A stretch of DNA of 27,095 nt from a virus. Taxonomy: Duplodnaviria > Heunggongvirae > Uroviricota > Caudoviricetes. The notes below the pieces were generated by a model. The model searched no databases. It was not told the origin of the DNA and saw only the letters and a list, made by a program, of their open reading frames with translations. Positions 7,550 through 25,994 of the stretch are shown in pieces. Position 1 is the first letter of the stretch. Each line of letters begins with the position of its first letter. Location: the IMG/VR virus record IMGVR_UViG_2537562194_000033. One strand, 5' to 3'. The position numbers were made by a program, and so were the translations under genes.

Positions 7550-8043
7550 CAGCACAACTCCGCAAAGATTCGCGGGCGGCACAGAATGTCAGAGATGGCC
7601 CAGCTCACATCACGCCACAAATCCGATGTCTGTATATCCAGAGCGTCCGCCCGGCGGTCGCCCTTGTCCGTTGTGTCTGCATCACGATAACGCTCCAGAA
7701 TCAGGGCGCGCGTGGCGGTATAAACAGCATTGCGCCAGTGCCAGAGATTGACGCTTTCTCCGTTAATTACAGGGGCCGGAACATCGGCCAGCGTCTGATG
7801 GCCAGCTGCCTGCTGTTCCTGCTGCCATGCTTCCAGCTCGCGGGTAACGTGTGCCACAGCCCCGGTGGCAGTATGCAGCAGGCGGGAGGTGGTCACGCGG
7901 CCCGGCAGTCGTACCGCCAGACGCAGCTCGCGCAGCACAATATCCGGCCAGAATGCACCCGCTGAAATGCGGGTATCGCCATCATCGGTATCGGTGATGT
8001 CGTCCTCTGCGGGTCTGGGTTCAGTTCTGGCAACCATACTCAT
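7549..8043 (-). CDS. L: head completion/stabilisation protein gpL
   Basis: ATG at 8043 with an AGGAG ribosome-binding site 9 nt upstream (the track start at 8052 is a GTG). 164 aa, in the P2 L position. Confidence 0.8.
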   Translation of the reverse strand: MSMVARTEPRPAEDDITDTDDGDTRISAGAFWPDIVLRELRLAVRLPGRVTTSRLLHTATGAVAHVTRELEAWQQEQQAAGHQTLADVPAPVINGESVNLWHWRNAVYTATRALILERYRDADTTDKGDRRADALDIQTSDLWRDVSWAISDILCRPRIFAELC

Positions 8044-14349: not shown

Positions 14350-16575
14350 TTACGAACGAATAGGAATTGATGTTTGCGGTTGAATTGGCACGAGCACCTG
14401 ATTATAAGTACGTAAAATTTCGTTATACAGGTCTTGGTGCTTTGATGCCTTAATGGTAATTATAAGAGCATACTTGATTTTTTCTGCCTTATGGCTGGCT
14501 ATGCTTGCACCGGCCTCACGAGCGTTATAATGAATGTCAAATACAGGATTTTTTAGAGTTGAACCTAGCATGTTCTTCGAATTATGTAAGACGGTCTCCC
14601 ATTTGCCCATGTCAGAACGTCGCTCACTTTCAGTTGAATATTTGGCCAGTTCAAAGAATCCCTTGGTTTCAGCATTTTGTTTTCCGTCTTTGATTTTTGA
14701 ATCATTTGGCCGGAATGTCACTTCCAAACCAGCTTTTGTATAGGAAGCTGGGTCTTGTGGATCAGTGGTTGTTGCATAACAGAAAGTTGCCGCTAAGTTT
14801 ATTCTACCTTTCAAGCCACCTTCAGGTATTGGAAGAGAAGCGCGTAAGTATTTTCCTGGTTTCAATTCACCTTGGTAGACGATACGGGCAACACCATCAG
14901 GGCTGACTATAATGTCGTTCAAGTCTTCAGGCAGTTTTCCCCAGCCAACTTCTGTACAAGGATGATCAAGCTGTTTTGACGCATGAATTAACAAAGCTTT
15001 GATTGCTAGTAGGCTCAAATCGTTCCCTAAAATTGCCCGAACACCAACAGCTGCTCGTAAGGCGTAAGGAGAGGCAAAGCTTGTTCCTAGCTGGGGTATG
15101 ATTACAGGCTTCTTACCTTTACCTAAAACATGAAAGTACTCGTCTGTGTCACCACCAAACGCAACTAAATCCGGTTTCATCACGCCAGGACTTCTGCCTG
15201 GCCCAATGGCGCTATATGGTGCTCGTTTCCATTCCGTATCATTAACTGTATCACAAGCACCAACAGCAAGAGCATTAACGCAATCGGCTGGTACTTGAAT
15301 TCTTGCATTACCAGACTTGCGATCCATTTCTCCATTGTTGCCAACAGCAACAGTCATTAATGTTTCACCATCACTTAACAAATCATCAATAACGGAAGTC
15401 CATGCATGAACTTCCGTATCTTCAATTGGTAGGTCTGGACCTAAACTTAGATTGATAAACTGATACTGGCGAGACAACAATACCTCTTCAATAAAGCCCA
15501 AAGTTCGATATAGTTCCAGCGGATCTTCTTGGCAGGTCTTGTTGTCCAAAACTCTTAAGTTATCAATATAAGAGTATGGTCTTTTCGCTTCCGATTTATT
15601 ACTTATTGGTCCAAATAAAAAGGCTGAAGACACAGCTAAACCATGCTCTAAACCGTCTGGATCATCCTCTGCATGATCGTCCAAAACTCTATAGGATTTT
15701 AACCATGGCGATATAGCGTGCTCTGATGGTAAACCACCATCAAGAATCGCAACTTTTATTTCTGAAGATACGGGGCCCTCAGCAGGTAATTTACACTGAG
15801 CTAAAGGACCGTAGTTCCTTTGTATTGGTCTAATCCCACGCAATCTTGGAACCGGTCTTATTACTCGTACAAATGTAAATTTCGCAAGCTTACTAATAGT
15901 AATTCTATCGGCCTGGATTGGCACGAACCATAATGTACCAGCGGTAAAAGCTAATGAAGTATGTACTTTGATGTTCAAATTTGATGCAAACTGAACAAAT
16001 TGTTGCTGAACCAAGTCTTGTTCATTATCTGACAGTAAATGAACACCAACCTCAAAATACGAAGAATCCTGCTCACCAATGGTAATAATACGCTCTTCGG
16101 GTAAATAGGCATCGAACCGTTCTATGCGTGCAAAATCAATCGCTTCGTCAGAAAACTCTTTGAGTCCTGACACCCAATGAGGTAACTCTTTGAAGGATTC
16201 TCTTTTACCAGCAACAAACATTTGTGTCGTAGTTACTTCTGACACAGTAACTTTTCGCTTCCAGCTTTGAGGCGTAATTTTTACCGTCCTGCTGCCAATA
16301 GACGTTAACCCGGTAGACTTAAGCATTTTTGCAGGAAAAAAAGAGCGTGCAATATAGCTTGGATTCAACGTCAACTTAGCCACAGCATAATCATAAGGAC
16401 ATGCCTGACTGGGTAAATCATCAAAATTTTCTATAGTAGATGCAATTTGCGGCAATAAACGTTGTTTCGATTCGTAAAGAGAATAAACCTCAGCTTTTCC
16501 GGGCACTCTTTTAGGACCAGGAATATCGCTGGTTAATAATTCGCCGCGTCCAATCAGAAAATTAGTTTTCGCCAT
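14350..16575 (-). CDS. S8 subtilisin-like serine protease with uncharacterised N- and C-terminal domains (IetS-like?)
   Basis: 741 aa, ATG at 16575 with AGGAG 6 nt upstream. Catalytic motifs in canonical order: D279 (VAILDGG), H311 (LEHGLAV), N413 (VAVGNNGE), S499 (LGTSFASP). Flanked by ~265 aa N-terminal and ~200 aa C-terminal regions with no motif I recognise. AT-rich relative to the phage core. Confidence 0.85.
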   Translation of the reverse strand: MAKTNFLIGRGELLTSDIPGPKRVPGKAEVYSLYESKQRLLPQIASTIENFDDLPSQACPYDYAVAKLTLNPSYIARSFFPAKMLKSTGLTSIGSRTVKITPQSWKRKVTVSEVTTTQMFVAGKRESFKELPHWVSGLKEFSDEAIDFARIERFDAYLPEERIITIGEQDSSYFEVGVHLLSDNEQDLVQQQFVQFASNLNIKVHTSLAFTAGTLWFVPIQADRITISKLAKFTFVRVIRPVPRLRGIRPIQRNYGPLAQCKLPAEGPVSSEIKVAILDGGLPSEHAISPWLKSYRVLDDHAEDDPDGLEHGLAVSSAFLFGPISNKSEAKRPYSYIDNLRVLDNKTCQEDPLELYRTLGFIEEVLLSRQYQFINLSLGPDLPIEDTEVHAWTSVIDDLLSDGETLMTVAVGNNGEMDRKSGNARIQVPADCVNALAVGACDTVNDTEWKRAPYSAIGPGRSPGVMKPDLVAFGGDTDEYFHVLGKGKKPVIIPQLGTSFASPYALRAAVGVRAILGNDLSLLAIKALLIHASKQLDHPCTEVGWGKLPEDLNDIIVSPDGVARIVYQGELKPGKYLRASLPIPEGGLKGRINLAATFCYATTTDPQDPASYTKAGLEVTFRPNDSKIKDGKQNAETKGFFELAKYSTESERRSDMGKWETVLHNSKNMLGSTLKNPVFDIHYNAREAGASIASHKAEKIKYALIITIKASKHQDLYNEILRTYNQVLVPIQPQTSIPIRS

Positions 16576-16598
16576 ACATACTCCTTATCTATGCTGTA

Positions 16599-17720
16599 TT
16601 ACATTTTTTGACTGTATTTTCTAATTGTATCCCTACTGACTCCGGTTAAGTCTGATATGGCATGCTGGGATAATTTAGAATTTCTTTTTAGAGTAACTGC
16701 AATTTCTTTACGTTCATTCCTGTCTAATTCTGATAAACCATCTTTAATGAACGACCCAATCAACTCTTCATCTGAGGAAATACCTAAAGCGACCGAACGT
16801 CGGAATTTGTTGATAGAACGCTCAATATTACTAAAAGATTCATTTTTGAACATAATAGCCAGTAGATCTATCCAACGTGCAAAAATCGCGTAGTCGGGAC
16901 CCGAAAAGCGTTTAATTGCTTCTTTAATACTTTCGCTATCTGGCTTCTCAAAATTGAGCACTAAATCAAAACGTCTCCATAGTGCTGGATCAATCAACTC
17001 AGCGAAGTTAGTTGCAGCAAGTAGCAAACTAGAAGACGGCCATTCGTCAACCTCCTGGAGTATCACGGTAACAAGTCTTTTTAATTCTCCAACATCAGAA
17101 TCATCACTTCTCTTTTTGGCGATTGAATCAATTTCATCTAACAGAAGAACGCACGGCCCTTTCTTCGCAAAATCTAGAGCTGCCCGAAGGTTATTTCCGC
17201 TTTTGCCCAGATAGCTGCTCATTACTGCCGTTAAATCAAGAACGTAAAAAGGAACCCCTAATTTCTGAGCTAACCAGCTTGCCGTAAGTGTTTTACCGAC
17301 ACCCGGAGGGCCAACAAAAATGGCAGAGCGTGTTGGTTGTAAGCCGAGAGTCTTGAGGCGATCGATGTGCTTCCGCTCAAGAATAATTTGATCCAGTGAG
17401 TCTTCTATCTGACTGGACAGTAGAGGTTTGCTCACAATCTTTTCATTTGGTGCTTTAAGCAAGGTAAGCCTTGACTCCTCGTCCACAGGCATGGTTTGAG
17501 GCAGCGCTTGTTTTGGTGCGGTAACCTTACGCAGGCTTTGTGCAGGCTTTTGCGGTTTATTTCGTAGATAAAGATCAAGCTGCTCGGATAGAGCAGGCAT
17601 AGTTTCCCGATATTTACGCACCAAGCGAGCGACATATAACCGAACGTCATCATACTGTTCAGTTATTACCAGTCTAACTAGTTGGGCTAAATCTGACTGA
17701 ATACCACCTAAGTCGCCCAT
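16599..17720 (-). CDS. AAA+ ATPase with C-terminal HTH-like tail (IetA-like?)
   Basis: 373 aa, ATG at 17720 with AAGAGG upstream. Walker A GPPGVGKT (K143), Walker B VLLLDEID, sensor-1 AATN, RR at 249-250. The last ~25 aa (SKLSQHAISDLTGVSRDTIRKY) look like a helix-turn-helix. Stop is 23 nt before the protease start, so the two are an operon. Confidence 0.85.
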   Translation of the reverse strand: MGDLGGIQSDLAQLVRLVITEQYDDVRLYVARLVRKYRETMPALSEQLDLYLRNKPQKPAQSLRKVTAPKQALPQTMPVDEESRLTLLKAPNEKIVSKPLLSSQIEDSLDQIILERKHIDRLKTLGLQPTRSAIFVGPPGVGKTLTASWLAQKLGVPFYVLDLTAVMSSYLGKSGNNLRAALDFAKKGPCVLLLDEIDSIAKKRSDDSDVGELKRLVTVILQEVDEWPSSSLLLAATNFAELIDPALWRRFDLVLNFEKPDSESIKEAIKRFSGPDYAIFARWIDLLAIMFKNESFSNIERSINKFRRSVALGISSDEELIGSFIKDGLSELDRNERKEIAVTLKRNSKLSQHAISDLTGVSRDTIRKYSQKM

Positions 17721-20672: not shown

Positions 20673-21038
20673 TTACTTCGTCATGCCATTCAGGGTGTCG
20701 CGGCAGACTGTAGCCAGCCGCTGAATTTCCAGCACGGTGTCTTCTGTGTCGGCATGGCGATGTGTGATGCGGATGCTGTCGGCAATCACATCGACGATTG
20801 CAGAGGATGGGCGCTGGTAAATGCCAATAACGGACGGGGTGCCACCTTCAATGCGGTAAAGCCTGTAATTTCCCTCGTGGCTGTCAATCATGTAGCGACC
20901 ATCAATAACAATCTTTCCGTCAGCGAGCTGCGGTACAGGCAGGGATTTCAGGTACATGTCATAACGATCACGCACGCGAGCGGCAAGATCACGTTCTGTG
21001 TTGAGCAGGTATTCAAGAAAGTCGTTGGCGAGAATCAT
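20673..21038 (-). CDS. hypothetical early-operon protein
   Basis: 121 aa, ATG at 21038, stop 7 nt before the A start. Position matches the small orfs upstream of A in P2-like phages. Confidence 0.6.
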   Translation of the reverse strand: MILANDFLEYLLNTERDLAARVRDRYDMYLKSLPVPQLADGKIVIDGRYMIDSHEGNYRLYRIEGGTPSVIGIYQRPSSAIVDVIADSIRITHRHADTEDTVLEIQRLATVCRDTLNGMTK

Positions 21039-21110
21039 TGCGGCAATCCTCTTGTTACAGATGTGCGAAGGCCTCCCGCCGCAAGGTGCAGGAAAGGCCC
21101 GGAACAGGAG

Positions 21111-21341
21111 TTAATGGAGTTTGTTTTGCTGCTGGATGAGCTGTTGAAGCTCGTGCAGATCATCCGCCAGATAGCTGAAAACAGAGGCGGAATAAATGTT
21201 TGATAGTGCGTGGCTGCGCTCATGCAGCATATTGATGTGCATGATTTGCGCGACGCGTGATGCGCGGGAAAGTCTGCGGTTGATTTCAGTCTGGATGTGA
21301 CGACGCTCCGCGATAGCGCGGTGTGGTTTGCGGTTTGCCAT
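21111..21341 (-). CDS. hypothetical basic protein (Arg/His-rich)
   Basis: 76 aa, ATG at 21341 with GGGG upstream. Function unknown. Confidence 0.5.
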   Translation of the reverse strand: MANRKPHRAIAERRHIQTEINRRLSRASRVAQIMHINMLHERSHALSNIYSASVFSYLADDLHELQQLIQQQNKLH

Positions 21342-21443
21342 GGTGTGGCCCCTTGTGTAGTAAGTTGTGAAAACTCACCATCCAGAGCTGCGAAACTGTG
21401 GGGGGCGAGACGTACGAGGTTCGCAGTACCGGCTACACAAGAA

Positions 21444-21462
21444 CCCGGCCCGACCGAAGTCG
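21444..21462 (-). ncRNA. UUCG-tetraloop hairpin inside a structured non-coding island
   Basis: On the transcribed (minus) strand, CCGAC-UUCG-GUCGG with flanking GG/CC extension, sitting in a 320-bp non-coding gap (21342-21663) rich in dyad symmetry. Confidence 0.35.
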
Positions 21463-21530
21463 GCCCCGTACGCCCCGCCATAATTCTGACGCGAAAAAAA
21501 CGTGGCAATACAGTACGCACAAAAAAACCG

Positions 21531-21551
21531 CTGGCGCGGTTGTGCGCTTGT
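21531..21551 (-). terminator. putative intrinsic terminator/attenuator within the early operon
   Basis: On the minus strand, ACCGC-GCCA-GCGGT followed by a 7-U run (the A run at 21531-21537 on the plus strand). The stem is short. Confidence 0.35.
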
Positions 21552-21663
21552 GTAGTCAGCAGGCTGCGAAACCCGGCACCCGTTTTGTGAGGTGCAGCGG
21601 AAATGTAACCTGACTGATTGCGGCATGGCAAGCGGTTTTTTTGTGTGTGCATGTTCTGGTTTC

Positions 21664-21963
21664 TTAGTGGTTCAGAAAAAAATCAAAAACCTTGTCAATG
21701 CGTTGCAGCAGCTCTTGCTGTATTGCTTCCGGCGTTTCCGGTTCGCCTGGCGCCTCCAACGTCGCGCAGAAATCCTCGATTTCATGACGGAGCGTCAGGC
21801 GAATGGCGAGAGGTGTGGTTCTGGCGTGCTCCAGCTCATCCAGCAGCGCCAGCACAGCAGACGGCGAGAGCATTGCGCGAAACGCCAGTAATTTTTGAGG
21901 CGTTGCCATTCGTTGCAGGTCAGTCGCCAGTTCGCGTAATTCCTGGTGGTTGATGGCGCTCAT
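21664..21963 (-). CDS. hypothetical early protein
   Basis: 99 aa, ATG at 21963 overlapping the upstream stop (ATGA). Confidence 0.55.
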   Translation of the reverse strand: MSAINHQELRELATDLQRMATPQKLLAFRAMLSPSAVLALLDELEHARTTPLAIRLTLRHEIEDFCATLEAPGEPETPEAIQQELLQRIDKVFDFFLNH

Positions 21964-22205
21964 GCTCTGGCTTCCTTTAGTAGCTGGTTAAACATGTTGG
22001 TAAGTGGATTGCCGCACCCGAACGGCATCGGGTTTATCTGGTAAGAAAAGCGACCGCCTGTTTTGCGCTCTTTTCTTATGACTGAACCGCTGCGCCAGAG
22101 TCGGCGTAACTCCGCATTAATGGCTGTGGTTGGGGTATTCAGTGCTGCGGCGATTTCTCCACCACTACACCCCGGATTGGCGGCGATATAGTCCAGAATG
22201 GTCAT
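21960..22205 (-). CDS. hypothetical small protein, possible winged-helix DNA-binding
   Basis: 81 aa, ATG at 22205 overlapping the upstream stop (ATGA). Contains an HTH-like GEIAAALNTPTTAINAELRRL segment. Confidence 0.55.
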   Translation of the reverse strand: MTILDYIAANPGCSGGEIAAALNTPTTAINAELRRLWRSGSVIRKERKTGGRFSYQINPMPFGCGNPLTNMFNQLLKEARA

Positions 22206-24149: not shown

Positions 24150-24203
24150 TGAACCGCCCCGGAAATCCTGGAGACTAAACTCCCTGAGAAAGAGGTAAAC
24201 AGG

Positions 24204-24530
24204 ATGACTAAAAATACTCGTTTTTCCCCCGAAGTCCGTCAGCGGGCGATTCGTATGGTTCTGGAAAGTCAGGATGAATATGACTCACAGTGGGCGGCAA
24301 TTTGTTCCATTGCCCCAAAGATTGGCTGTACGCCGGAGACTCTGCGTGTCTGGGTTCGCCAGCATGAGCGGGATACCGGGGGCGGTGATGGTGGGCTCAC
24401 CAGCGCTGAACGTCAGCGTCTGAAAGAGCTGGAACGTGAAAATCGTGAACTGCGCCGCAGTAACGATATCCTTCGCCAGGCTTCCGCTTATTTTGCGAAG
24501 GCGGAGTTCGACCGCCTCTGGAAAAAATGA
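24204..24530 (+). CDS. IS3-family transposase OrfA (HTH and leucine-zipper part)
   Basis: 108 aa. The -1 frame relationship to orfB at the A6 run (24522-24527) fits the programmed frameshift typical of IS3-family elements. Confidence 0.9.
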
Positions 24531-25417
24531 TGCCACTGCTGGATAAGCTGCGTGAGCAGTACGGGGTCGGACCGGTATGCAGCGAACTGCATATTGCCCC
24601 GTCAACGTATTACCATTGTCAGCAACAGCGACATCATCCGGATAAACGCAGTGCCCGTGCGCAGCACGACGACTGGCTGAAGAGAGAGATACAGCGCGTA
24701 TACGATGAAAATCATCAGGTGTACGGTGTGCGTAAAGTCTGGCGTCAGTTGTTACGGGAAGGAATCAGGGTGGCCAGATGTACAGTGGCACGTCTCATGG
24801 CGGTTATGGGACTTGCCGGTGTTCTCCGGGGTAAAAAGGTCCGTACGACCATCAGCCGGAAAGCCGTTGCCGCAGGCGACCGCGTAAACCGTCAGTTCGT
24901 GGCAGAACGACCTGACCAGCTGTGGGTGGCTGATTTTACTTACGTCAGCACATGGCAGGGCTTCGTCTATGTGGCGTTTATCATTGATGTGTTTGCCGGA
25001 TACATCGTGGGGTGGCGGGTCTCATCGTCTATGGAAACGACATTCGTGCTGGATGCGCTGGAGCAGGCGTTGTGGGCCCGTCGTCCGTCTGGCACCATCC
25101 ATCACAGCGATAAAGGCTCTCAGTATGTGTCACTGGCCTATACGGAGCGACTAAAAGAAGCCGGATTACTGGCATCAACAGGGAGTACAGGCGACTCGTA
25201 TGACAACGCGATGGCTGAGAGCATCAATGGTCTTTACAAAGCGGAGGTAATACACCGTAAGAGCTGGAAAAACCGTGCAGAAGTGGAACTGGCCACACTA
25301 ACGTGGGTGGACTGGTATAACAATCGACGATTGCTGGGAAGGCTGGGCCATACTCCTCCGGCAGAAGCAGAAAAAGCTTATTATGCTTCCATCGGAAACG
25401 ATGATCTGGCAGCCTGA
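24527..25417 (+). CDS. IS3-family transposase OrfB (DDE catalytic domain)
   Basis: 296 aa with an rve-type integrase core (WVADFTYV...HSDKGSQY...[14 protein letters not shown]). Confidence 0.9.
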
Positions 25418-25459
25418 GTTCACAGATAAAACACTCTCCAGGAAACCCGGGGCGGTTCA

Positions 25460-25673: not shown

Positions 25674-25994
25674 ATGGCATCTTTGTCAAGCATGGGTGAA
25701 AAATTTCGCCTGATTCGTGAAGCAGAAGGTATGACCCGCCAGGAGTTTGCGGATTGTGTTGGGCTGCCTTATGGGACGGTAACTAACTATGAGGTGAGGG
25801 GGAAGCAAGTAACAGAGGGTGCCTTACTTAAGGTTACGAAACACCCTAAATTTAAGAAGTATGCTTATTGGTTATCAACAGATGAAACGATGCCGGAGGT
25901 CGGGCAAATTTCTCCGGCTCTCTCTCTTGATGGTTCCTGCAATTCGGAGGGAGATCGCGTTTCAACCGAAACAATCCAAAAATTATCCCGCTGA
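25674..25994 (+). CDS. C: immunity repressor C
   Basis: Start set to ATG at 25674 (MASLSSMGEKFRLIREAEGMTRQEFADCVGLPYGT...), with GGAGGA 10 nt upstream. The HTH region and PKFKKYAYWL / GQISPAL blocks resemble P2 C as recalled. The track ORF begins at an upstream GTG. Confidence 0.8.
   Translation: MASLSSMGEKFRLIREAEGMTRQEFADCVGLPYGTVTNYEVRGKQVTEGALLKVTKHPKFKKYAYWLSTDETMPEVGQISPALSLDGSCNSEGDRVSTETIQKLSR

What the first reader, a model, noticed from the sequence alone, without database searches (positions are those of the whole stretch)
21342..21663. 320-bp structured non-coding island inside the tightly packed early operon
Every other junction in this operon is overlapping or under 75 nt, but here there is a 320-nt gap. 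It contains dyad symmetry (CTTGTGTAG at 21350 and 21554 against CTACACAAG at 21433; GCTGCGAAAC direct repeats), a CCGAC-UUCG-GUCGG tetraloop hairpin on the transcribed strand, and two hairpin-plus-U-run elements. Candidates are a small RNA, an attenuator or processing site, or a protein-binding site.
Basis: seen in the sequence. Interest (0 to 1): 0.5.

Follow-up and report, generated by a model that had tools for sequence, protein, structure and literature searches.

The report
Phage RNA immunity switch, P4/P1 type
The 320-base "gap" holds two known phage regulatory RNA genes, an IsrK/SeqA-like RNA and a C4/CI-like antisense RNA, which most likely keep a neighbouring anti-repressor gene and the replication genes silent in the dormant virus. 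This is a new copy of a known switch, not a new kind of element.

Summary
On the minus strand the gap (21342-21663) carries a tandem of two Rfam families scoring above their curated cut-offs: isrK (21595-21521, 64 bits) and C4 antisense RNA (21485-21398, 77 bits). C4 elements b' and a' are complementary to a1/b1 in the IsrK-like RNA and to a2/b2 downstream, and b2 runs into the Shine-Dalgarno sequence of the next gene. Across 71 variants these elements change in step. The controlled gene (21341-21111) is a homologue of the P4 epsilon derepression protein and is followed by replication gene A. The window is a P2-like (Xuanwuvirus P88-type) prophage. P4 (seqA-CI-seqC-epsilon) and Gifsy-1 (isrK-orf45/STnc1160-anrP) give the same two Rfam hits in the same order.

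"Non-coding" is too simple. A 205-codon frame (Pfam Phage_ASH; annotated "transcriptional regulator" in NC_049391) spans the RNA genes. It stays open across epsilon far more often than chance and ends on the ATG of the next gene, like P4 eta.

Verdict: a new member of a known kind, unannotated or mis-annotated in public records, with moderate interest.

The parts
21602..21631 (-). Internal sigma-70-like promoter: -35 TTGCCA (21631-21626), 18-nt spacer, -10 TACATT (21607-21602). The predicted start is about 21595, the first base of the IsrK-like RNA.
   Evidence: Promoter scan. The hexamers and the spacer length are kept while the spacer sequence diverges in distant members of this class (L030, L125, L128), and a TTGNNN/TANNNT pair sits at the same place in other classes. 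This is a consensus-level prediction, not mapped.
21521..21595 (-). IsrK/SeqA-like RNA. Hairpin 1 is at 21595-21576. Hairpin 2 is at 21575-21560 with a1 in its loop (GUUUCGCAGC, 21572-21563). b1 (CUACACAAG, 21555-21547) lies in the linker. The intrinsic terminator is at 21541-21526 plus a U-run.
   Evidence: Rfam isrK RF01394: 64.1 bits (gathering score 50), E 6.5e-13. Terminator scan. The same model hits P4 seqA (60.8 bits) and Gifsy-1 isrK (79.3 bits). Coordinates verified.
21398..21485 (-). C4/CI-like antisense RNA. A long closing stem encloses hairpin 1 (21463-21450, UUCG loop) and hairpin 2, whose loop carries b' (CUUGUGUAG, 21441-21433). It is followed by single-stranded a' (CUGCGAA, 21426-21420).
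   Evidence: Rfam C4 RF01695: 77 bits (gathering score 45), E 8e-15. MFE -46.3 kcal/mol, z -3.5. RNAalifold on 72 sequences gives compensatory changes at 14 of 24 pairs.
21387..21396 (-). a2 target (GUUUCGCAGC), directly after the 3' end of C4.
   Evidence: Exact repeat of a1. Complementary to a'. An a2 site is present in 96% of 71 variants, against 6% when loops are swapped between loci.
21349..21360 (-). b2 target (CUACACAAG, 21360-21352), running into the Shine-Dalgarno sequence AAGGGG (21354-21349) of the epsilon-like gene.
   Evidence: b2 is present in 92% of variants, against 7% in swapped controls, and ends 7-12 nt before an ATG in 62 of 71. The predicted duplex of the C4 loop segment with a2..b2 is -33.7 kcal/mol.
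21111..21341 (-). The controlled gene: a 76-aa homologue of the P4 epsilon (helper derepression) protein, a predicted anti-repressor.
   Evidence: Pfam Derepression PF25738: 32.5 bits (gathering score 27). BLASTP against P4 epsilon: 29% identity over 66 aa, E 4e-9. P4 epsilon itself scores 170 bits on the same profile.
21035..21652 (-). Eta-like 205-codon reading frame (Phage_ASH). Its ATG lies upstream of the internal promoter. It runs through both RNA genes and all of the epsilon gene (out of frame) and stops at the TGA that overlaps the ATG of the 121-aa gene (ATGA, 21038-21035). The conserved AUG at the 5' edge of C4 (21481-21479) is in this frame.
   Evidence: The frame is open in 16 of 18 class variants, against about 5% expected. 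The ATGA ending recurs in lineages whose next genes are not homologous. The same AUG starts the experimentally translated orf45 of Gifsy-1.
20673..21038 (-). 121-aa gene of unknown function whose start overlaps the stop of the eta-like frame. Replication gene A (20666-17901) follows it. Both are presumed downstream beneficiaries of the switch.
   Evidence: ATGA overlap. Pfam Phage_GPA 437 bits for the 921-aa protein. The only minus-strand promoter-like sites in 21000-22000 are the two inside the gap itself (21631-21602 and 21508-20480); none lies between the gap and gene A.

Best explanation
The gap is an RNA immunity cassette of the P4 / P1-P7 / Gifsy-1 type, sitting inside the early operon of a P2-like phage.

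**Proposed mechanism in the lysogen**
- An internal promoter (about 21631-21602) fires on the minus strand.
- Most transcripts stop at the intrinsic terminator, giving a roughly 75-nt IsrK/SeqA-like RNA that displays a1 and b1.
- Read-through transcripts contain the C4/CI-like RNA, which is cut out. By analogy with P1 and P4 this would be done by RNase P.
- C4 pairs through its elements b' and a' with a2 and b2 on read-through mRNA.
- The b2 duplex covers the Shine-Dalgarno sequence of the epsilon-like anti-repressor gene, so that gene is not translated.
- The untranslated RNA is then expected to terminate early, keeping the 121-aa gene and replication gene A off.
- The upstream a1/b1 copy pairs with the same elements. 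It could do so in cis in the precursor, or in trans as a decoy or as a termination target, which would set a threshold.

**Proposed mechanism in lytic growth**
- Transcripts from the early promoter enter from upstream.
- They are translated in the 205-codon eta-like frame straight across the terminator, the C4 gene, its targets and epsilon, ending on the ATG of the next gene.
- This ribosome traffic would make early transcription insensitive to the RNA immunity, as described for P4 eta.

**Shown here:** the family identity of the RNAs, their structure, the co-variation of the six recognition elements, the overlap of b2 with the ribosome-binding site, the homology to epsilon, and the conservation of the open frame.

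**Inferred:** promoter activity, RNA processing, repression, termination, and the bypass by translation.
For: - **Family identity.** Both Rfam hits are above their gathering scores. The same isrK-then-C4 tandem is found in six related or unrelated phages, in P4 over seqA and CI, and in Gifsy-1 between antQ and anrP.
- **Structure.** C4 folds at z = -3.5, and 14 of 24 stem pairs show compensatory changes in 72 sequences.
- **Co-variation of recognition elements.** In a 7-phage alignment a', b', a1, b1, a2 and b2 all differ between lineages and stay complementary. In 71 unique variants, near-perfect 7-mers occur at a1 in 97%, a2 in 96%, b1 in 79% and b2 in 92%. When loops are swapped between loci the rates are 3-11%.
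- **Where the divergence lies.** Window against P88 and phiSM: 38-43% divergence inside the six elements, 7.5-8.7% outside them.
- **Target position.** b2 ends 7-12 nt before an ATG in 62 of 71 variants.
- **Cis pairing.** The minimum-energy fold of the whole read-through RNA pairs a1/b1 with a'/b', matching structure A of Gifsy-1 (PMC4825925).
- **Downstream gene.** It is an epsilon homologue. Eighteen variants have this gene after C4, and most of them also show an A-type replication gene on the same contig.
- **Eta-like frame.** It is open across epsilon in 16 of 18 variants. The chance of this under synonymous recoding is about 0.05 (median), and 5.6% of equivalent windows in the window's own genes are open. 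It ends at ATGA in eight loci whose next genes fall into three unrelated types.
- **Literature.** The P4 eta/CI/seqA mechanism is summarised in PMC10111431. Translation of Gifsy-1 orf45 from the same AUG is shown in PMC4825925.
Against: - There are no expression data for this phage. The promoter, the RNA ends and the processing are predictions.
- No Rho-dependent terminator could be identified by computation.
- In Gifsy-1, co-expression of STnc1160 (the C4 homologue) made IsrK toxicity stronger rather than weaker (PMC4825925). This does not fit a simple trans-repressor role.
- In this particular copy the terminal U-A pair of the C4 stem is broken by a C at 21403, where nearly all other copies have A.
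- An insertion sequence separates the operon from its early promoter, so this copy may be partly disabled.
- Three of 22 epsilon-class loci lack the long open frame.
Confidence: 0.8

Rival explanations
1. Gifsy-1 logic. The short IsrK-like RNA is the active regulator and acts as an activator. The C4 region works mainly in cis as a translational lock, with a1/b1 paired to a'/b' in the read-through mRNA. Free IsrK-like RNA opens that lock, allowing translation from the AUG at the C4 edge and of the genes downstream. A trans-acting C4 repressor would be secondary or absent.
For: The Gifsy-1 experiments (PMC4825925). Gifsy-1 has exactly the same isrK-C4 tandem, and orf45 starts at the conserved C4 AUG. 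The minimum-energy fold of the window's read-through RNA shows the cis a1b1:a'b' helix.
Against: This logic does not explain why a second full target set (a2/b2) is conserved and co-varies downstream, with b2 on the ribosome-binding site. In P4 and in P1/P7 the homologous RNA is a trans-acting repressor (PMC10111431, PMC12197685). In the window the frame from the C4 AUG does not end at the epsilon start, so orf45-type coupling to the anti-repressor is not available.
Confidence: 0.2
2. Pure P1/P7-type translational repression. C4 only blocks the epsilon ribosome-binding site. The long reading frame is an accident of RNA sequence conservation plus a stop-poor frame, and it is never translated.
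For: b2 overlaps the Shine-Dalgarno sequence. The predicted 205-aa protein is not conserved beyond what the RNA and the epsilon frame impose. The long frame is absent from many distant C4 modules, where the frame from the C4 AUG closes after 14-47 codons.
Against: The frame is open over epsilon in 16 of 18 variants, against about 5% expected. It ends exactly at ATGA in eight loci whose next genes fall into three unrelated types. The homologous frames are translated in P4 (eta; PMC10111431) and in Gifsy-1 (orf45; PMC4825925).
Confidence: 0.2
3. The region simply encodes a protein (an Ash-family 'transcriptional regulator', as annotated for gp51 of NC_049391), and the RNA resemblance is incidental.
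For: There is a conserved open frame. It gives a sub-threshold Phage_ASH hit (22.6 bits against a cut-off of 26) and hits PHROGs labelled transcriptional regulator. It is annotated this way in NC_049391.
Against: Both covariance-model scores are well above threshold. The stems show compensatory changes. Co-ordinated changes at six short sites are explained by base pairing and not by any protein constraint. The same Pfam family covers the old P4 'cI' ORF, whose product is known to be the CI RNA (PMC10111431). The translated sequence is compositionally odd, rich in Ser, Thr, Cys and Arg.
Confidence: 0.03
4. The region is a protein-binding site or an origin-like DNA element. The repeats would then be operator or iteron sequences.
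For: There are direct and inverted 9-10-nt repeats.
Against: The repeats sit in loops and single-stranded parts of RNAs that match covariance models. They co-vary as complements with G-U tolerance, which is a signature of RNA and not of DNA. No DNA-binding logic is needed to explain them.
Confidence: 0.02

Closest known systems
Satellite phage P4 immunity region (PLE promoter, seqA, CI RNA, seqC, eta/kil, epsilon, alpha)
   Same: The Rfam isrK and C4 models hit seqA and CI in the same order and orientation. An internal promoter-like site lies inside a long Phage_ASH/eta-type frame. An epsilon homologue lies downstream and replication genes follow.
   Different: P4 has a Kil-like 64-65-aa gene nested in frame between CI and epsilon. 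In the window, epsilon starts directly after b2 and the eta-like frame overlaps it out of frame. The host element here is a P2-like helper-type phage with an A-type replication endonuclease, not a satellite with an alpha primase. The isrK-to-C4 spacer is 35 nt here and 107 nt in P4.
P1/P7 immI (a1/b1, c4 antisense RNA, a2/b2, icd, ant)
   Same: The RNA family is the same (C4 RF01695, and the c4-a1b1 model of the same clan). The recognition scheme is the same: two elements, each with an upstream and a downstream target, and the downstream target on a ribosome-binding site in front of an anti-repressor. Specificity is variable, as in P1/P7 hetero-immunity (PMC12197685).
   Different: The controlled gene is epsilon-like, not icd/ant. 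The upstream target sits in an IsrK-type RNA with its own terminator. The P1 sequence itself was not examined here; this comparison rests on the Rfam models, the review, and my own knowledge of Citron & Schuster 1990 and Biere et al. 1992.
Salmonella Gifsy-1 isrK-orf45(STnc1160)-anrP locus
   Same: The same isrK-then-C4 tandem (79 and 69 bits). The terminator read-through architecture is the same. The same AUG at the 5' edge of C4 starts a translated frame (A107 of PMC4825925 corresponds to L134 34210). b2 lies next to the Shine-Dalgarno sequence of an anti-repressor gene.
   Different: In Gifsy-1 the frame is 45 codons and ends ATGA on anrP. In the window it is 148 codons from that AUG (205 from the upstream ATG) and ends ATGA on the gene after epsilon. 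The anti-repressor families differ. Gifsy-1 is lambdoid, and the published output there is AntQ.
Phage 186 Tum and P22 sar/ant (other anti-repressor controls)
   Same: The functional theme is the same: a temperate phage keeps an anti-repressor tightly off in the lysogen.
   Different: Tum is LexA-controlled, and no LexA box lies near this module. sar is a cis-antisense RNA of a different family. These are analogies only.

Membership tests
Rfam C4 antisense RNA (RF01695; P1/P7 c4, P4 CI) | Covariance-model score at or above the curated gathering score | tested here: met
   77.0 bits against 45, E 8e-15, full-length model match 1-87.
Rfam C4 antisense RNA (RF01695; P1/P7 c4, P4 CI) | A long closing stem enclosing two hairpins, supported by covariation | tested here: met
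   The minimum-energy fold equals the family structure. 14 of 24 pairs show compensatory changes in 72 sequences. The terminal U-A pair is broken in this copy.
Rfam C4 antisense RNA (RF01695; P1/P7 c4, P4 CI) | Two single-stranded elements (a', b') complementary to target pairs both upstream and downstream | tested here: met
Rfam C4 antisense RNA (RF01695; P1/P7 c4, P4 CI) | The downstream target covers the ribosome-binding site of the first controlled gene | tested here: met
   b2 (21360-21352) overlaps the Shine-Dalgarno sequence 21354-21349, and the ATG is at 21341. This is general across the family: 62 of 71 variants.
Rfam C4 antisense RNA (RF01695; P1/P7 c4, P4 CI) | Mature RNA cut from a longer precursor by RNase P | not testable with these tools
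   Only indirect support: the second promoter-like site just upstream of C4 is not conserved in other lineages.
Rfam isrK (RF01394; Gifsy-1 IsrK, P4 SeqA) | Covariance-model score at or above the gathering score, with a 3' intrinsic terminator | tested here: met
   64.1 bits against 50. Terminator at 21541-21526 plus U-run.
Rfam isrK (RF01394; Gifsy-1 IsrK, P4 SeqA) | Hfq binding and trans-activation of the read-through mRNA | not testable with these tools
   Requires experiments.
P4-type RNA immunity | The order seqA, CI, seqC under a constitutive promoter that lies inside an eta-like ORF | tested here: inconclusive
   The order and the ORF are met. The promoter is only a conserved consensus match.
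P4-type RNA immunity | A Kil-like small gene nested in the eta frame as the first translated gene after CI | tested here: not met
   The first gene after b2 is epsilon-like, in a different frame from the eta-like ORF.
P4-type RNA immunity | Immunity-dependent, Rho-dependent termination (timm) downstream of CI | not testable with these tools
   P4 timm maps to X51522 8365-8209 (PMC3177188). No computational test was available here.
P4 epsilon / Derepression protein family (PF25738) | Profile score above the gathering score and pairwise similarity to P4 epsilon | tested here: met
   32.5 bits against 27. BLASTP E 4e-9.
P4 epsilon / Derepression protein family (PF25738) | Binds and inactivates a P2-type C repressor | not tested
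   The window encodes a 100-aa HTH repressor candidate at 25692-25994.

The most novel reading that the evidence does not exclude
The 205-codon frame may be a conserved ribosome-transit ORF, an analogue of P4 eta, whose protein product does not matter. In P88-type phages it overlaps the whole epsilon anti-repressor gene out of frame and stops on the ATG of the next gene. Transcripts from the early promoter would then be translated across the terminator, the C4 gene and its targets, escaping the phage's own RNA immunity and coupling into the replication genes.

Together with the epsilon homologue, this would mean that P2-family helper phages and P4-family satellites share one immunity-derepression cassette. 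That would be an exchange between helper and satellite not recognised in the surveys I read: PMC8628076 names delta as the only P4-specific gene with clear homologues in P2-like phages.
Probability: 0.45. Interest if true: 0.55.

Novelty: new member of a known kind. Interest (0 to 1): 0.35.

Why it matters
- **Annotation.** The region is present in 1153 of 5426 complete E. coli genomes. In the public records I looked at it is left blank, labelled "ash family protein", or labelled "transcriptional regulator". A common regulatory RNA pair is therefore being missed or read as protein.
- **Immunity typing.** The a'/b' elements form a combinatorial code: 30 a' cores and 51 b' cores give 70 distinct pairs, and no pair is shared between element classes. 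This code could be used to type the immunity specificity of prophages and satellites.
- **Phage biology.** The cassette puts a P4-style anti-repressor and RNA immunity inside P2-like phages. P88 is mitomycin-C inducible (PMC5285337). From my own knowledge, P2 itself is not inducible. This gives a testable route to induction, and to helper-satellite cross-talk.

Tried and rejected
- **LexA control.** Looked for a LexA box that could link the module to SOS induction. None lies near it; 13 loose matches in the window against 8 expected.
- **A separate promoter for C4.** Checked the second promoter-like site (TTGCCA-17-AATTAT, 21508-21480). Its -10 overlaps the C4 leader, and the -35 and the spacing are not conserved in other lineages. 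Rejected.
- **Homology of the 121-aa gene to P4 orf151.** Not significant (E 0.16).
- **Extra C4 targets elsewhere in the window.** None found: the 9-mer and the 10-mer occur only inside the module.
- **Wider sampling of epsilon-like genes.** The first query alignment was too divergent. The second scan of one-genome-per-species contigs returned only four loci.
- **Primary P4 paper.** Forti et al. 1999 is not held in the library, so the eta mechanism is cited through PMC10111431.
- **P1 itself.** Not fetched or examined.
- **Sampling bias.** It is biased towards close C4 relatives. Two of the 72 aligned sequences (L043, L079) are not genuine C4.

Full report
**Context.** The window is a P2-like prophage, 99.9% identical over the query to Xuanwuvirus P88_4B11 (NC_049391) and about 94% to phage P88. 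Its early operon runs on the minus strand, so everything below is read on that strand. The gap lies between a 99-aa Ead/Ea22-like gene (21963-21664) and a 76-aa gene (21341-21111). A 121-aa gene follows, and then replication gene A (Phage_GPA, 437 bits).

**Observation.**
- CTACACAAG occurs at 21360-21352 and 21555-21547, with its complement at 21441-21433. That is three hits against 0.19 expected, and no shuffle of 100 reached three.
- GTTTCGCAGC occurs at 21396-21387 and 21572-21563.
- The UUCG hairpin is at 21463-21450.
- A clear intrinsic terminator is at 21541-21526 plus a U-run.
- The coordinates are a few bases off. Other junctions of 85 and 180 nt exist. A 205-codon ORF crosses the gap.

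**Identity.** A scan against Rfam gives C4 antisense RNA (RF01695) at 21485-21398 with 77 bits (cut-off 45), and isrK (RF01394) at 21595-21521 with 64 bits (cut-off 50).
- The C4 segment folds into the family structure at -46.3 kcal/mol, z = -3.5.
- The same isrK-then-C4 tandem is found in P88, Citrobacter phiSM, three lambdoid phages and a Hafnia phage.
- It is also found in satellite phage P4, where the hits fall on seqA and on the CI immunity RNA.
- It is found in Gifsy-1 between antQ and anrP. The published STnc1160/orf45 region there is therefore a C4 homologue.
- An RNAalifold run on 72 C4 sequences shows compensatory changes at 14 of 24 pairs.

**Recognition elements.**
- C4 element b' (CUUGUGUAG) and the single-stranded a' (CUGCGAA) are complementary to two target sets.
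- The upstream set is a1, in the loop of the second IsrK hairpin, and b1, in the linker.
- The downstream set is a2, just after C4, and b2.
- b2 runs into the AAGGGG Shine-Dalgarno sequence 8 nt before the ATG of the 76-aa gene.
- In a 7-phage alignment every lineage has different a' and b' sequences, and all four targets follow them, sometimes through G-U pairs.
- I drew C4 loci from viral contigs. In 71 unique (a', b') variants, near-perfect 7-mer complements were present at a1 in 97%, a2 in 96%, b1 in 79% and b2 in 92%. When loops were swapped between loci the rates were 3-11%.
- b2 ended 7-12 nt before an ATG in 62 of 71 variants.
- Between the window and P88 or phiSM, divergence is 38-43% inside the six elements and 7.5-8.7% elsewhere in the gap.
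- This is the a1b1-c4-a2b2 scheme of P1/P7 and the seqA-CI-seqC scheme of P4.

**The controlled genes.** The 76-aa protein matches Pfam Derepression (32.5 bits, cut-off 27) and P4 epsilon (29% identity, E 4e-9).
- In P4 the order is seqA, CI, (kil), epsilon, orf151, orf106, alpha.
- Here the order is IsrK-like RNA, C4-like RNA, epsilon-like gene, 121-aa gene, gene A.
- Of the 71 sampled variants, 22 are P4-like satellites with a 64-aa Kil-like gene after C4.
- Another 18 have this epsilon-like gene after C4. Most of them also show an A-type replication gene on the same contig, as in P2-like phages.
- The rest precede Rha, Bro-N, ORF6N or KilA-N anti-repressor-type genes, or small unknown genes.

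**The reading frame.** NC_049391 annotates the gap as gp51 "transcriptional regulator". PGAP marks it "similar to ash family protein".
- Residues 16-109 of the 205-aa ORF match Pfam Phage_ASH below threshold.
- The same family covers the obsolete 137-aa "cI" CDS of P4 with 59.7 bits, and the N-terminal extensions of annotated lambdoid anti-repressors. Phage_ASH is therefore the conceptual translation of the isrK-C4 DNA.
- That alone would make it an artefact, but the frame is unusually persistent.
- Counted from the conserved AUG at the C4 5' edge, it stays open for 146-150 codons in 15 of 18 epsilon-class variants and for 269 in one more. In all 16 it covers the whole epsilon gene in the (2,3,1') frame.
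- Synonymous recoding gives a median chance of about 0.05 that this frame is open, and only 5.6% of 76-codon windows in the window's own genes are open in that frame.
- The frame ends with a TGA overlapping the ATG of the next gene in eight loci whose next genes fall into three unrelated types.
- The predicted protein is not conserved.
- There are three exceptions among 22 loci.
- Two published systems show that this frame is used. In P4, eta contains the internal promoter, CI and seqA, and its translation from an upstream promoter prevents immunity-specific termination (PMC10111431, summarising Forti et al. 1999). In Gifsy-1, orf45 starts at exactly this AUG, ends ATGA on anrP, and is translated and coupled (PMC4825925).

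**Mechanism.** The full model, and which steps are shown and which inferred, is given under the best explanation. Two points bear on it.
- The a1/b1 copy pairs with a'/b' in cis in the predicted fold of the precursor. It may also act as a decoy or as a termination target.
- The ATG of the 205-codon frame (21652) lies upstream of the internal promoter. Only early-promoter transcripts can therefore be translated in it across the whole cassette.

**Novelty.** The RNA families, the pairing scheme and the eta and orf45 precedents are all published, so this is not a new kind of element.
- What I did not find described is this cassette, with an epsilon homologue, inside P2-family phages.
- A survey of P4-like satellites states that delta is the only P4-specific gene with clear homologues in P2-like phages (PMC8628076).
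- I also did not find the out-of-frame overlap of the eta-like frame with epsilon described.
- The papers on P88 and phiSM that I searched returned no hits for my RNA or anti-repressor search terms.
- The region occurs in 21% of complete E. coli genomes and is unannotated or mis-annotated there.

**Limits.** There are no expression data. P1 itself was not examined. The homologue sample is biased by the search pattern. This particular copy may be impaired by an insertion sequence in cox and by a broken terminal pair in C4.

Noticed in passing
window 24151-25459: A 1309-bp IS3-family insertion sequence is inserted in the cox gene. It encodes HTH_Tnp_1 (108 aa) and rve (296 aa) ORFs, and from memory its ends look like IS629. 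The flanks are 99.9-100% identical to NC_049391, which lacks the insertion. cox is truncated (only profile positions 31-87 remain), and the early operon is separated from its promoter and from the repressor gene.
   Followed up: partly
window 14350-17720 (minus strand): Downstream of replication gene A are an AAA ATPase (373 aa) and a subtilase (741 aa). They match the IetA and IetS proteins of the IetAS anti-phage defence system (260 and 174 bits in PADLOC). NC_049391 has ParM-like partition genes at this position.
   Followed up: partly
P4 locus L009 8168-8584 and 7888-8175; window 21035-21652: Pfam Phage_ASH (PF10554), and several PHROGs labelled transcriptional regulator or repressor, match the translated isrK/C4 (seqA/CI) DNA, not the epsilon protein. 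Epsilon matches PF25738 instead. A large survey of P4-like satellites used PF10554 as its "epsilon (Ash)" marker (PMC8628076), so that marker in fact tags the RNA immunity/eta locus.
   Followed up: partly
window 21403: The window's C4 has a C where NC_049391 and nearly all other aligned C4 sequences have A (GCCACC becomes GCCCCC). This breaks the terminal U-A pair of the closing stem and is flagged as a non-canonical pair in the Rfam alignment.
   Followed up: no
L017 1874-2400, L075, L129: In three viral contigs the first gene after the C4 module is an 85-aa protein matching Pfam Tad2-like (Thoeris anti-defence 2; 27.7 bits, cut-off 25). C4-type RNAs may therefore also gate anti-defence genes.
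   Followed up: no
L030 (IMGVR_UViG_2554235145_000016) 219-310 and 7843-7934: One contig carries two complete C4 modules with different a'/b' specificities. One precedes a long P4-epsilon-like gene (89 aa) and the other a short MANRK-type epsilon-like gene (75 aa).
   Followed up: no
window 21035-21110: The 72-nt spacer between the epsilon-like gene and the 121-aa gene contains a G+C-rich hairpin (GGCCUUUCCUGCACCUUGCGGCGGGAGGCC). It is conserved with the spacer even where the next gene is replaced (L020). Its function is unknown.
   Followed up: no
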